Below, one piece after another: positions 31,510 to 33,715 of a DNA stretch of 64,000 nucleotides. The stretch lies in the NCBI GenBank assembly GCA_000092065.1, contig CP000594.1. One strand, 5' to 3'. The notes beneath the pieces were generated by a model. It worked only from the letters and a program-made list of their open reading frames with translations. It was not told the origin of the DNA and searched no databases. Positions within the stretch are counted from its first letter, which is position 1, and each line of letters begins with the position of its first letter. The position numbers and the translations under genes are program-made. The stretch is from Ostreococcus lucimarinus. Lineage: Eukaryota.

Positions 31510-32400
31510 ATGGCGCCCTTCAACCTGAAAACGATCAGCGTCACCCGCGCCCACCACGGCACCTTACATCGGCTCCAACACGACTCCGAAACCTTGAGCT
31601 CGGTCGCGACTTTCGCCGTGTTCGTTCCCGGCGCGGTCGAAGACTTCAAAGACAAATTCCCCCTCTTGTTGTACCTCTCCGGATTGACGTGCACGGACGA
31701 AAATGTGGCGCAGAAAGGGTGCGCGTTCGAGCACTGCCACGCGCGGCGCGTGGCCATGGTCATGCCGGACACGTCACCGCGAGGAGACGACGCGGCGGAC
31801 GACGAGGCGTGGGATTTAGGGAAGGGGGCTGGATTTTATGTAGACGCGTCGGCGGCGCCGTGGTCTCGACACTACAAAACGTACTCGTACGTCACGAAAG
31901 AGCTGCCGAAAGTGCTGCGGGCGTGCGATTTTGCCGATGCGTTGGATCACGAGCGAGTGTCGATCTCGGGGCACTCGATGGGGGGACACGGGGCGTTGAC
32001 GTTGGCGCTGAGAAATCCAAACGCGTACGCGAGCGCGAGCGCGTTCGCTCCGATTGCTAATCCGACGGCGTCGGATTGCCCGTGGGGACAAAAGGCGCTC
32101 AAGGCCTACCTTGGGAGCGCGGATTGCGATGAGGCGAAATCGCACGACGCGACGGAGCTCGTGAAGAGCGTCGAGGCGGGCACGTTTAAGATGCCGATTT
32201 TAATTGATCAAGGCGCGGCGGACTCCTTTTATAAGACGCAGTTGCACCCTGAGCGTTTCGTGGACGCGGCGAAAGAGCGTGGATGTGATGTCACGTATCG
32301 TCTGCACGATGGTTACGATCATAGCTACTTTTTTGTTTCCACGTTCATGCGCGAGCACATCGAGTTCCACGCCGCGGCGCTGGGAAGTCTTAAAATTTAA
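31510..32400 (+). CDS. FGH: S-formylglutathione hydrolase (esterase D / FrmB family).
   Basis: MAPFNLKTISVTRAHHGTLHRLQHDSETLSSVATFAVFVPG...LLYLSGLTCTDENVAQKGCAFEHC...ISGHSMGGHGALTLALRNPNAYASASAFAPIANP...LIDQGAADSFY...HDGYDHSYFFVSTFMREHIEFHA shows high identity to esterase D as recalled. ATG at 31510 checked. Confidence 0.9.
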   Translation: MAPFNLKTISVTRAHHGTLHRLQHDSETLSSVATFAVFVPGAVEDFKDKFPLLLYLSGLTCTDENVAQKGCAFEHCHARRVAMVMPDTSPRGDDAADDEAWDLGKGAGFYVDASAAPWSRHYKTYSYVTKELPKVLRACDFADALDHERVSISGHSMGGHGALTLALRNPNAYASASAFAPIANPTASDCPWGQKALKAYLGSADCDEAKSHDATELVKSVEAGTFKMPILIDQGAADSFYKTQLHPERFVDAAKERGCDVTYRLHDGYDHSYFFVSTFMREHIEFHAAALGSLKI

Positions 32401-32454
32401 TGACATTGATAATCGGTTGTGAAAGTAATTATACGGTTGAGAAGGACCGCTTGA

Positions 32455-33715
32455 TTAATCGAAGCTCAACACGCATCGTAAGCACTTGCCTTCGTGCAAC
32501 AGCTCGAACGCTTCGTTGATTTGATCAAACTTCATGCGGTGCGTGATGTATCTGTCGAGTTTCGTGTTTCCGCCCATGTACTTTTCGACCAGTTTCGGCA
32601 CGGCGATGCGGCTCTTGTACCCGCCGAAAGCGGTACCTTTCCACGTGCGACCGGTGACGAGTTGGAATGGTCTGGTTGAGATTTCCGTGCCCGCGGCGGC
32701 GACGCCGACGATGACGGAAGTCCCCCACCCCTTGCGGCAGCATTCCAAAGCGCTTCGCATGACGTTGACGTTTCCGACGCATTCGAACGAATAATCCACT
32801 CCACCGTCCGTCATCTCCGCGATGACAGTTTGTGAATTTTTATCGCCAAACTTTGTCGGGTTCACAAAATCCGTGGCGCCGAACTCGCGCGCCACGGCTT
32901 CCTTTTCGTCGTTGGTGTCGACAGCGATGATGCGCGTCGCGCCCGCCTCCACAGCCGCCTCCACGCACGCCAATCCGACGGCGCCCAGACCAAACACCGC
33001 CACGGAGCTCCCCTCTTCGACCCGCGCCGTGTTATGCACCGCCCCCCACCCCGTGCTCACGCCGCATCCCAGCAGGCACACCTTATCCAACGGCGCCTCG
33101 TCGTTCCCCACCTGCGCCACCGCCACCTCGTGCACCACCGTGTACTCGGAAAACGTCGACGTTCCCATGAAGTGAAAAATCTCCGACCCGTCGCTCGCGA
33201 GCGTAAATCTCGGCTTCCCGTCGTTCTTCATCACCCCCGCGCCCGTGTACGCCCGCACCGCCTGACACAGGTTCGATTTCGGATGCACGCAGTGCGCGCA
33301 CGGCTCCTTCGCGATGTCCGCGCAGTACGCCTGATAGCACGGAATCACCCGATCGCCCGCTTTACACGACGTCACGCCCTCGCCGACGGATTCCACCGTC
33401 CCCGCCGCCTCGTGTCCCAGGATGCACGGAAACTTCCCCTCCGAGTCGTGTCCGCCGAGCTGTTCGACGCGTCGGCGTCAGTCCGAGACGATCGACGGCG
33501 CGTCCGGGTCGAGTCGGCACGCGCGCGCGCGCGCGATTCGCGCGGCGAGCGCGCACCGTGTACGCATCCGTGTGACACAGCGCGTTGTACGCGATTTTAA
33601 TTCGCACTTCGCCCGCCTGCGGCGGCGCGACGACGACGTCGACGATTCGCAGCGGCTCGCGCGGCGCGAACGCCACCGCCGCCTTGCACGCGATCGGCTC
33701 GCCCGCGCGCGACAT
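32455..33715 (-). CDS. ADH3: Class III alcohol dehydrogenase / S-(hydroxymethyl)glutathione dehydrogenase (glutathione-dependent formaldehyde dehydrogenase). Two exons: 33715..33557 and 33459..32455, with a 97-nt intron 33556..33460.
   Basis: Exon 1 encodes [53 protein letters not shown] with donor GTGCGC. Exon 2 encodes [46 protein letters not shown]...[25 protein letters not shown]..., a canonical ADH3. Branch GGACTGAC. 3' splice site ACAG. Exon lengths are in frame (159 + 1005 nt). Confidence 0.9.

What the first reader, a model, noticed from the sequence alone, without database searches (positions are those of the whole stretch)
31510..33715. Glutathione-dependent formaldehyde detoxification genes are physically paired (convergent FGH and ADH3, ~54 bp between stops), with a GST 1.5 kb away
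S-formylglutathione hydrolase (31510-32400, +) and S-(hydroxymethyl)glutathione dehydrogenase (32455-33715, -) are consecutive steps of one pathway. They form the frmA/frmB operon in bacteria but are usually unlinked in eukaryotes. Here they sit tail-to-tail with overlapping 3' regions. A glutathione S-transferase lies at 35246-36223 on the same strand as ADH3. This may reflect co-regulation, with antisense or overlapping 3' UTRs possible, or an ancestral linkage.
Basis: partly seen in the sequence, partly recalled or inferred. Interest (0 to 1): 0.5.

Follow-up and report, generated by a model that had tools for sequence, protein, structure and literature searches.

The report
Adjacent formaldehyde-detoxification genes in Ostreococcus
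In the tiny marine green alga Ostreococcus lucimarinus, the genes for two enzymes that destroy formaldehyde one step after the other lie tail-to-tail 54 bases apart, but this looks like ordinary inherited gene order rather than a regulated unit, and the nearby GST gene is unrelated.

Summary
The window is Ostreococcus lucimarinus CCE9901. A sigma-type GST lies 1.5 kb beyond.

The pairing is conserved in five other Ostreococcus lineages and three Bathycoccus-like lineages. It sits inside a collinear block of about 20 kb (Nramp to a protein kinase), so its retention is what the neighbours also show. Six Pfam-supported convergent pairs in the window have gaps of 54-97 bp, so the short spacer is genomic routine.

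The GST is separated from ADH3 by two unrelated genes. It is present only in this species and one sister lineage.

A joint bacterial origin is not supported. ADH3 is green-algal, FGH groups weakly with eukaryotes, and 54 bacterial loci all have ADH3 then FGH on one strand, never convergent. A GC-rich lineage whose ADH3 groups with the Mamiellales has ADH3 unlinked.

Physical coupling of these enzymes in eukaryotes is already known from fusions in ciliates and diatoms and from fused gene models in Micromonas.

Verdict: a real, family-wide neighbour pair, most likely neutral synteny. Co-regulation is untested. Interest is low to moderate.

The parts
29940..31433 (+). MFS transporter of unknown substrate, the conserved upstream neighbour of FGH. 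The longest ORF starts at 29940. The gene call on identical environmental contigs starts at 30030.
   Evidence: Pfam MFS_1 E=7.6e-46. Only generic MFS subfamily matches, all far below their cutoffs. The nearest solved structures are weak matches. It lies upstream of FGH on the same strand in every relative.
31434..31509 (+). 76-bp gap between the MFS stop and the FGH start. It must hold the MFS 3' end and the FGH promoter/5' UTR.
   Evidence: Coordinates. In five of the six Ostreococcus lineages compared (not the window itself), a TTGTTGTA-like motif sits in the 110 nt upstream of the FGH start, downstream of the MFS gene. No 7-mer is shared with the ADH3 upstream region in 3 or more lineages.
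31510..32400 (+). S-formylglutathione hydrolase (FGH / esterase D / FrmB homologue), 296 aa, single exon.
   Evidence: TIGR02821 325.7 bits against a 281.7 cutoff. Solved FGHs match at E=3e-82 to 5e-76, including human ESD 3FCX. GHSMGG Ser156, Asp233, His271 and Cys61 are invariant in alignment A1. The exact sequence equals XP_001421239 of O. lucimarinus.
32401..32454 (.). 54-bp AT-rich spacer (39% GC) between the two stop codons. It is the presumed transcript-end region of both genes.
   Evidence: The spacer is 31-120 bp in the other Ostreococcus lineages and L010/L011/L017, and 269 bp in L015/L098. All are AT-rich and look unalignable by eye.
32455..33459 (-). ADH3 / GSNOR exon 2 (codons 54-387 plus stop).
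   Evidence: Pfam ADH_zinc_N. Splice reconstruction. 587 bits to the solved S-(hydroxymethyl)glutathione dehydrogenase 7AAS (Chlamydomonas GSNOR1, from my own knowledge).
33460..33556 (-). 97-nt GT..AG phase-0 intron of ADH3, specific to the O. lucimarinus lineage.
   Evidence: It is absent from L007, L008, L009, L016, L096, L010, L017 and L098, whose ADH3 aligns without interruption. It is 96% identical in environmental contigs L001-L006.
33557..33715 (-). ADH3 / GSNOR exon 1 (codons 1-53, including the catalytic-zinc ligand Cys47).
33716..33849 (-). 134-bp region upstream of ADH3. It doubles as the 3' flank of TFB5. It is the ADH3 promoter region and is separate from the FGH promoter.
   Evidence: Coordinates. 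No motif shared with the FGH upstream region.
33850..34077 (-). TFIIH subunit TFB5, an unrelated intervening gene.
   Evidence: Pfam Tfb5 E=1.1e-21.
34192..35235 (-). RluA-family pseudouridine synthase, an unrelated intervening gene. The gene call on identical contigs ends at 35148.
   Evidence: Pfam PseudoU_synth_2 E=1.2e-27. TIGR00005 E=3.7e-37.
35246..36223 (-). Sigma-class-like glutathione S-transferase with an N-terminal extension of about 77 residues. It is a lineage-specific insertion and not part of the pathway.
   Evidence: GST_C_3. Best solved relatives are sigma GSTs / prostaglandin D synthases, E=1e-18 and weaker. Present only here and in L016 (61% identity). Absent between the pseudouridine synthase and ABC1 in L007, L008 and L009, and absent from L096 and L098.

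Best explanation
These are two ordinary, vertically inherited, separately transcribed housekeeping genes. One encodes FGH and the other ADH3/GSNOR. They became neighbours no later than the common ancestor of Ostreococcus and the Bathycoccus-like lineages. They have stayed neighbours because this whole chromosome segment of about 20 kb has barely been rearranged in that family.

They work as in other eukaryotes. Formaldehyde adds spontaneously to glutathione. ADH3 oxidises the adduct to S-formylglutathione, and also reduces GSNO. FGH then releases formate and glutathione (established pathway knowledge).

Each gene has its own short upstream region: 76 bp after the MFS gene for FGH and 134 bp after TFB5 for ADH3. 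They meet tail-to-tail across a 54-bp AT-rich spacer, like every other convergent pair in this compact genome. Their 3' ends probably abut or overlap, but that would be a genome-wide habit and not a device of this pair. The GST is a recent, unrelated insertion.

Shown: gene identities, anatomy, conservation, block collinearity, typical spacer length and non-bacterial ancestry. Inferred: neutrality of the adjacency and overlap of the 3' ends.
For: Identity of the genes.

Conservation: the same order and orientation (MFS>FGH><ADH3) is found in Ostreococcus lineages L007, L008, L009 (O. mediterraneus), L016 and L096. It is also found in the Bathycoccus-like lineages L010/L017 (GC 50%), L011 (GC 53%) and L015/L098/L099 (GC 44-45%).

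Block collinearity: Nramp, DIRP, MFS, FGH, ADH3, TFB5, ABC1, orf78, EXS, Arf and the kinase (plus Pcc1 from the Pfam gene call) are in the same order even in L098, at 36-72% protein identity. Only whole-gene insertions and losses occur elsewhere in the block.

Background expectation: the literature reports that 75.7% of genes are collinear across six Mamiellophyceae and that block order is more stable in Bathycoccaceae (PMC11106453).

Spacer: it is typical. Convergent gaps in the window are 54-97 bp. The spacer sequence does not look conserved by eye. The EXS/Arf convergent gap changes with lineage in parallel with it (approximate).

No shared upstream 7-mer in 3 or more lineages, and the number of shared k-mers equals that of the ABC1 control.

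ADH3 is monophyletic with green algae in 98-100/100 NJ bootstraps.
Against: The same two enzymes have been physically coupled repeatedly and independently. Examples are bacterial operons, reciprocal fusions in ciliates and diatoms (PMC3143110) and fused Micromonas gene models (PMC3817919). This recurrence argues that selection can favour coupling. A chance adjacency of exactly this pair has a prior of only about 2.6e-4. None of the gene-level insertions or losses I counted in the block (about six) hit the MFS|FGH or FGH|ADH3 junctions, although that is expected 37% of the time by chance (my calculation). Expression was not examined.
Confidence: 0.7

Rival explanations
1. The tail-to-tail pair is kept together by selection for coordinated expression. 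The means could be a shared open-chromatin domain or coupled 3'-end formation. This would be a third eukaryotic route to coupling FGH and ADH3, beside operons and fusions.
For: Coupling of exactly these enzymes recurs: operons in 54 of 78 bacterial loci, fusions in both orders (PMC3143110), and Micromonas fused models (PMC3817919). The pair is unbroken in nine lineages, while TFB5, the pseudouridine synthase, the GST, Sulf_transp and an 822-aa gene come and go around it.
Against: Convergent genes cannot share a promoter. Overlapping convergent transcription would tend to oppose joint induction, not favour it (inference). No shared conserved upstream motif was found. The spacer is not conserved in sequence and varies from 31 to 269 bp. 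The flanking genes are conserved equally well. In the GC-rich lineage L013/L014, whose ADH3 groups with the Mamiellales, ADH3 sits in a different context with no FGH within 10 kb.
Confidence: 0.2
2. The three genes MFS, FGH and ADH3 form a functional module, with the transporter exporting formate or a glutathione conjugate.
For: The MFS gene lies directly upstream of FGH on the same strand in every lineage recovered, at 42-78% identity.
Against: The MFS protein gives only generic matches far below any family cutoff: aromatic acid, galactonate and drug-efflux subfamilies at 97 bits or less against cutoffs of about 400. No oxalate/formate antiporter family appears among the listed matches. Its conservation is explained by block collinearity, as for DIRP, ABC1, EXS and Arf.
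Confidence: 0.05
3. The pair is a rearranged remnant of a bacterial frmA-frmB operon acquired by horizontal transfer.
For: The best named database hits of FGH are bacterial (Vibrio 51%), against 49% for fungi. Bacteria commonly have the two genes adjacent.
Against: ADH3 is clearly green-algal: 70-72% identical to Chlamydomonadales and Chlorella, with its best solved relative 7AAS at 587 bits. Bacteria split from green algae in 195/200 bootstraps. The FGH clade joins the cluster holding fungi and Corallochytrium in 127/200 bootstraps, not bacteria. Human ESD scores 259 bits, within the bacterial range of 221-280. Bacterial loci are always co-directional with ADH3 first, whereas here the order and orientation differ.
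Confidence: 0.03

Closest known systems
Bacterial glutathione-dependent formaldehyde operons (E. coli frmRAB, adhC-fghA of Moraxella/Neisseria, flhA-fghA of Paracoccus)
   Same: The same two enzymes, immediately adjacent. In 43 of 78 bacterial metagenome loci they lie less than 400 bp apart.
   Different: The bacterial genes are co-directional with ADH3 first, co-transcribed, and often under an FrmR-type repressor (my own knowledge). Here the order is FGH then ADH3 on opposite strands, with separate promoters and no regulator gene beside them. ADH3 is of eukaryotic (green) descent.
FALDH-SFGH fusion of ciliates (Tetrahymena FSF1) and reciprocal SFGH-FALDH fusion of diatoms (Stover et al. 2005, as cited in PMC3143110)
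   Same: Physical coupling of the same two pathway steps in eukaryotes. I recovered more than 60 full-length fused proteins with FGH at the N-terminus; the named ones are diatoms such as Seminavis, Cyclotella, Thalassiosira and Ditylum. I also found one 665-aa protein with the order ADH3 then FGH.
   Different: Those are single polypeptides, whereas here there are two genes on opposite strands. The fusion ADH3 domains form their own clade (99/100) apart from green ADH3, and the fusion FGH domains do not join the Ostreococcus clade (1-12/100). The events are therefore independent.
Predicted GSNOR models with FGH-domain extensions in two Micromonas strains (Xu et al. 2013, PMC3817919)
   Same: The same order (Mamiellales) and the same two coding regions, contiguous in the genome.
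   Different: In Micromonas they are merged into one gene model, so they must lie on one strand. Those models lack transcript support. The same paper treats O. lucimarinus GSNOR (XP_001421423.1) as a stand-alone protein and does not mention its neighbour. I could not retrieve the Micromonas loci.
Unlinked arrangement in model eukaryotes (Arabidopsis At5g43940 / At2g41530, human ADH5 4q23 / ESD 13q14, yeast SFA1 / YJL068C)
   Same: Orthologous enzymes and pathway. The nearest solved ADH3 structures are from Chlamydomonas, Arabidopsis and tomato (organism assignments from my own knowledge) and human.
   Different: In those organisms the genes lie on different chromosomes (my own knowledge, not tested here). 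The GC-rich lineage L013/L014 likewise has ADH3 without FGH within 10 kb.

Membership tests
S-formylglutathione hydrolase (esterase D / FrmB, TIGR02821) | Full-length match to the equivalog model above its curated cutoff | tested here: met
   325.7 bits against a 281.7 cutoff, covering model positions 2-275 of 275. Solved FGHs match at E=3e-82 to 1e-56.
S-formylglutathione hydrolase (esterase D / FrmB, TIGR02821) | Ser-Asp-His triad with Ser in GHSMGG, plus the conserved active-site-proximal Cys | tested here: met
   Ser156, Asp233, His271 and Cys61 are invariant across algal and bacterial sequences. Assignment of their roles is by homology.
S-formylglutathione hydrolase (esterase D / FrmB, TIGR02821) | Thioesterase activity on S-formylglutathione | not testable with these tools
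   Needs an enzyme assay.
Class III alcohol dehydrogenase / S-(hydroxymethyl)glutathione dehydrogenase / GSNOR (TIGR02818) | Match to the equivalog model above its curated cutoff | tested here: inconclusive
   531.4 bits against a 543.95 cutoff, just below a threshold that NCBI uses to name bacterial and archaeal proteins. The next family scores only 257 bits.
Class III alcohol dehydrogenase / S-(hydroxymethyl)glutathione dehydrogenase / GSNOR (TIGR02818) | Closest to experimentally characterised ADH3/GSNOR rather than to other ADH classes | tested here: met
   Class-3/GSNOR entries score highest: 7AAS 587 bits, 3UKO 554, 4DL9 538 and human ADH5 493. Class-I/P ADHs score 402 or less. The organism assignments for 7AAS (Chlamydomonas), 3UKO (Arabidopsis) and 4DL9 (tomato) are from my own knowledge.
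Class III alcohol dehydrogenase / S-(hydroxymethyl)glutathione dehydrogenase / GSNOR (TIGR02818) | Catalytic and structural zinc ligands and the glutathione-binding Arg | tested here: met
   Cys47, His69 and Cys185 are present. So are four Cys in the structural loop (99, 107, 110, 118) and Arg122 in QAVR. The loop carries a 5-residue insertion.
Bacterial frmAB-type operon | Both genes on one strand, ADH3 upstream of FGH, one transcription unit | tested here: not met
   The genes are convergent with FGH first. All 54 bacterial loci with both genes are co-directional.
Bacterial frmAB-type operon | Adjacent formaldehyde-responsive regulator (FrmR or similar) | tested here: not met
   The neighbours are an MFS transporter and TFB5.
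FALDH/SFGH fusion proteins (ciliates, diatoms) | Both domains in one open reading frame | tested here: not met
   Two ORFs on opposite strands with separate stop codons.
Eukaryotic metabolic gene cluster | Three or more non-homologous genes of one pathway, adjacent | tested here: not met
   Only two pathway genes are present. The GST is not a pathway step and is not conserved here, and the MFS substrate is unknown.
Eukaryotic metabolic gene cluster | Co-expression of the members | not testable with these tools
   No transcript data are available. A shared-motif search was negative.
Conserved microsynteny block of Bathycoccaceae | Same gene order and orientation of the pair and its flanks in related genomes | tested here: met
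   There are 11-15 shared block genes in the same order in L007, L008, L009, L016, L096 and L098. The taxon names of the Bathycoccus-like contigs are inferred from GC content and tree position only (PMC5128809).

The most novel reading that the evidence does not exclude
The convergent FGH/ADH3 pair of Ostreococcus and Bathycoccus-like algae is a selected co-expression unit. It would be another independent solution to coupling the two formaldehyde/GSNO enzymes, after bacterial operons, ciliate and diatom fusions and the Micromonas fused models. It would operate through a shared chromatin domain or interlocked 3' ends in a genome with almost no intergenic DNA.
Probability: 0.15. Interest if true: 0.45.

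Novelty: new member of a known kind. Interest (0 to 1): 0.3.

Why it matters
If the adjacency were shown to be selected, it would add a third architecture (convergent neighbours) to the operons and reciprocal fusions already known for this pathway. It would also give a simple test case for how co-regulation works in the most compact free-living eukaryotic genomes. As the evidence stands, it mainly shows how far gene order is preserved in Bathycoccaceae. It also warns against reading function into neighbours, such as the GST, in gene-dense genomes.

Tried and rejected
Non-linkage in model eukaryotes therefore rests on my own knowledge.

2. Naming the metagenome lineages: cluster listings named only O. 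lucimarinus, O. tauri and O. mediterraneus. 'Bathycoccus-like' is therefore inferred from GC content of 44-53% (published Bathycoccus values are 47-48%, PMC5128809) and from tree position.

3. Introner test: a search for further copies of the ADH3 intron in the window and loci found only (CG)n low-complexity matches.

4. Shared upstream motif for FGH and ADH3 across six Ostreococcus lineages: none found, and the k-mer sharing equals the controls.

5. Conserved element or poly(A) signal in the spacer: the spacers look unalignable by eye, and TGTAA-like strings occur in some lineages only.

6. Diatom fusions descending from a prasinophyte pair: rejected. The ADH3 domains never join the green clade (0/100), and the FGH domains join it in only 1-12/100.

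7. MFS as an oxalate/formate-type transporter: no support.

8. Second FGH copy inside the window, suggested by the two RefSeq identifiers: none found.

9. Biopython's distance calculator timed out. I replaced it with my own Kimura-corrected p-distances. All trees are neighbour-joining only.
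Full report
Source and observation. The FGH protein encoded at 31510-32400 is identical to XP_001421239/XP_001421274 of Ostreococcus lucimarinus CCE9901. Environmental contigs carry the same locus. The window averages about 61% GC and is gene-dense.

FGH is a 296-aa ORF on the + strand. ADH3 runs from 33715 to 32455 on the - strand, and the stop codons are 54 bp apart. The spliced 387-aa product is colinear with homologues. The GST at 35246-36223 (-) is real.

Enzyme identities. 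FGH passes the TIGR02821 equivalog cutoff (325.7 against 281.7 bits). It matches solved S-formylglutathione hydrolases at E=3e-82 to 1e-56. It keeps the GHSMGG serine, the Asp and His of the triad and the conserved Cys61.

ADH3 scores 531 bits on TIGR02818, just under the 544-bit cutoff of a model NCBI uses to name bacterial and archaeal proteins. Its best solved relative is 7AAS at 587 bits, followed by 3UKO and 4DL9 and then human ADH5. These are Chlamydomonas GSNOR1, Arabidopsis GSNOR and tomato GSNOR, assignments I make from my own knowledge. All other ADH classes score far lower. The zinc ligands and the Arg of the glutathione site are present. The two genes therefore do encode consecutive steps of glutathione-dependent formaldehyde oxidation, and ADH3 is also the GSNO reductase (established knowledge; PMC6409631).

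Is the tail-to-tail spacing special? No. Six convergent pairs in the window have Pfam matches on both partners, although the EMC3 match is below its Pfam cutoff. Their stop-to-stop gaps are:
- 86 bp: zf-CCHC / CRAL-TRIO
- 90 bp: EMC3-like / CDPK
- 58 bp: POLQ-like helicase / PsbP
- 54 bp: FGH / ADH3
- 69 bp: EXS / Arf
- 97 bp: KAS / P-type ATPase

The spacer is AT-rich (39% GC). In relatives it is 31-120 bp, or 269 bp in the 44%-GC lineage, with no recognisable sequence conservation by eye. Abutting or overlapping 3' ends are therefore likely, but as a property of the genome.

Relatives. I retrieved the locus from these lineages:
- Ostreococcus: L016 (FGH 72%, ADH3 88% identical), L007, L008, L009 (O. 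mediterraneus by cluster membership) and L096.
- More distant: L010/L017 (GC 50%), L011 (GC 53%) and L015/L098/L099 (GC 44-45%). Here FGH is 52-56% and ADH3 71-72% identical.

I call the second group Bathycoccus-like for two reasons. They are the sister group of Ostreococcus in both trees, and published Bathycoccus genomes are 47-48% GC (PMC5128809). No named reference confirmed this.

All of these lineages show MFS>FGH><ADH3. The whole neighbourhood is also collinear: Nramp, DIRP, (Sulf_transp), MFS, FGH, ADH3, TFB5, (pseudouridine synthase), (GST), ABC1, orf78, EXS, Arf, Pcc1 and a kinase keep the same order even in L098. The differences are whole-gene insertions or losses:
- Sulf_transp and the pseudouridine synthase are missing in L098.
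- The pseudouridine synthase is missing in L096.
- A Cys-loop receptor gene is inserted in L008.
- An 822-aa gene is inserted between TFB5 and ADH3 in L098.
- The GST is present only in the window and L016.

With about six such events over about 13 junctions, leaving two named junctions untouched has a probability near 0.37 (my calculation). Published work reports 75.7% collinear genes across six Mamiellophyceae and especially stable block order in Bathycoccaceae (PMC11106453). Conservation of the pair is therefore real but not distinctive.

Limits of the linkage. A GC-rich lineage (L013/L014, 68-69% GC) has an ADH3 that groups with the Ostreococcus/Bathycoccus-like clade (167/200 NJ bootstraps). 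It shares their 5-6-residue insertion in the structural-zinc loop, which is absent from 14 other green algae, from diatoms and from bacteria. Its ADH3 lies in a different gene context, with no FGH and no other block gene within 10 kb on either side.

The GST. It is a sigma-class-like GST with an N-terminal extension. It is separated from ADH3 by TFB5 and an RluA-type pseudouridine synthase. It is found at this position only in O. lucimarinus and L016. GSTs are not a step of the pathway, because the glutathione adduct forms spontaneously (established knowledge). Its proximity is best read as coincidence.

Bacterial origin? Of 78 bacterial metagenome loci recovered with an FGH profile, 54 carry ADH3. 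In every case ADH3 is upstream on the same strand, and in 43 it is within 400 bp. None is convergent. Algal ADH3 is 70-72% identical to that of other green algae and 50-61% to bacterial ADH3. Green algae including this clade are monophyletic in 98-100/100 replicates, and the bacterial sequences split off in 195/200.

FGH is roughly equidistant from everything: Vibrio 51%, fungi 49%, and human ESD at 259 bits against 221-280 bits for bacterial structures. The Ostreococcus/Bathycoccus-like FGHs are monophyletic (194/200). They join the cluster that holds the only named eukaryotes in 127/200 replicates. A joint bacterial origin is thus contradicted for ADH3 and unsupported for FGH. All trees are neighbour-joining on Kimura-corrected distances. 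Green-algal and plant FGHs were not sampled, because they did not reach the top 120 hits.

Other eukaryotes. Two FGH hits (P0035, P0113) proved to be FGH-ADH3 fusions read into an intron. A search with P0035 returned over a hundred fused proteins. More than 60 are full-length, at 630-840 aa. The named ones are diatoms: Seminavis, Mayamaea, Epithemia, Cyclotella, Ditylum, Thalassiosira, Amphora, Eucampia and Nitzschia. This is the known reciprocal fusion: SFGH-FALDH in diatoms and FALDH-SFGH in ciliates (Stover et al. 2005, cited in PMC3143110).

A scan of 50%-identity representatives also showed a 665-aa protein with the order ADH3 then FGH, and GC-rich partial fusions. The fusion ADH3 domains form a separate clade (99/100) and the FGH domains do not join the Ostreococcus clade, so these are independent events. 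Xu et al. 2013 (PMC3817919) noted that the predicted GSNOR models of two Micromonas strains carry FGH-domain extensions without transcript support. They treated O. lucimarinus GSNOR (XP_001421423.1) as a plain protein. I found no report of the O. lucimarinus adjacency.

Mechanism. The best-supported reading is two independently transcribed housekeeping genes in a slowly rearranging block. Convergent orientation rules out a shared promoter. The two upstream regions (76 and 134 bp) share no 7-mer in three or more lineages, and they share no more k-mers overall than FGH does with the unrelated ABC1 gene.

The main rival is selection for co-expression through chromatin or 3'-end coupling. It gains plausibility from the repeated coupling of these enzymes elsewhere and from the low prior of chance adjacency (about 2.6e-4). 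It has no direct support here. From memory, Ostreococcus lacks the canonical RNAi machinery, which would make siRNA-type antisense regulation unlikely. I did not verify this: only listed candidate papers.

Verdict. This is a newly documented, family-wide neighbour pair of a kind already known for this pathway. It is most likely neutral, and of low to moderate interest.

Noticed in passing
window 33460-33556 (-): The 97-nt ADH3 intron exists only in the O. lucimarinus lineage. It is 96% identical in environmental contigs L001-L006, while the exons are identical at the protein level. Five other Ostreococcus lineages and the Bathycoccus-like lineages are intronless at this site, and L013 has an intron at a different site (after codon 41). 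It looks like a recent intron gain. No second copy was found in the window.
   Followed up: partly
window about 33400-33420 (-), ADH3 residues 100-106: A 5-6-residue insertion in the structural-zinc loop of ADH3 ([14 protein letters not shown]) is shared by all Ostreococcus lineages, the Bathycoccus-like lineages and L013. It is absent from 14 other green algae, from diatom fusions and from bacteria. It could serve as a clade marker.
   Followed up: partly
window 31510-32400: The identical FGH protein carries two GenBank/RefSeq identifiers (ABO99532/XP_001421239 and ABO99567/XP_001421274). This means either a second identical locus elsewhere in the assembly or a double annotation. Only one copy lies in the window, and self-BLAST shows no internal duplication.
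   Followed up: partly
window about 23259-41000; L098 1-21179: About 20 kb of gene order (Nramp to a 1,270-aa protein kinase) is preserved between Ostreococcus and a 44%-GC Bathycoccus-like lineage, although protein identities are only 36-72%.
   Followed up: yes
L008 4342-5586 (-): One Ostreococcus lineage has a Cys-loop ligand-gated ion-channel gene (Neur_chan_LBD + Neur_chan_memb) inserted between Sulf_transp and MFS. It is absent from the window and the other lineages.
   Followed up: no
L013 8726-9604 and 9680-10987: In the GC-rich lineage a LigB / 4,5-DOPA-dioxygenase-type gene ends 75 bp before the start of ADH3 on the same strand. Xu et al. 2013 report an apple GSNOR model with a C-terminal DOPA-dioxygenase domain. 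This may be coincidence or a second recurrent neighbour of GSNOR (PMC3817919).
   Followed up: no
proteins P0493, P0505, P0482, P0469, P0519 and others: A subgroup of FGH-ADH3 fusion proteins has the loop CYTPQCNAP[AS]CIFCASPKTNLC and a composition rich in Ala, Gly, Arg and Pro. It is very abundant in marine metagenomes (clusters of 40-158 members) but unnamed. It could belong to a GC-rich picoeukaryote, and Micromonas is a guess.
   Followed up: partly
window 31434-31509 and homologous gaps in L016, L007, L008, L009, L096: A TTGTTGTA-like motif recurs within the 110 nt upstream of the FGH start, downstream of the MFS gene, in five Ostreococcus lineages but not in the window itself. It is probably the 3'-end signal of the MFS gene.
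   Followed up: no
L098 7017-9485 (-): The Bathycoccus-like lineage has an 822-aa gene (weak SURF4 match) inserted between TFB5 and ADH3, and it lacks the pseudouridine synthase and Sulf_transp genes of the block.
   Followed up: no
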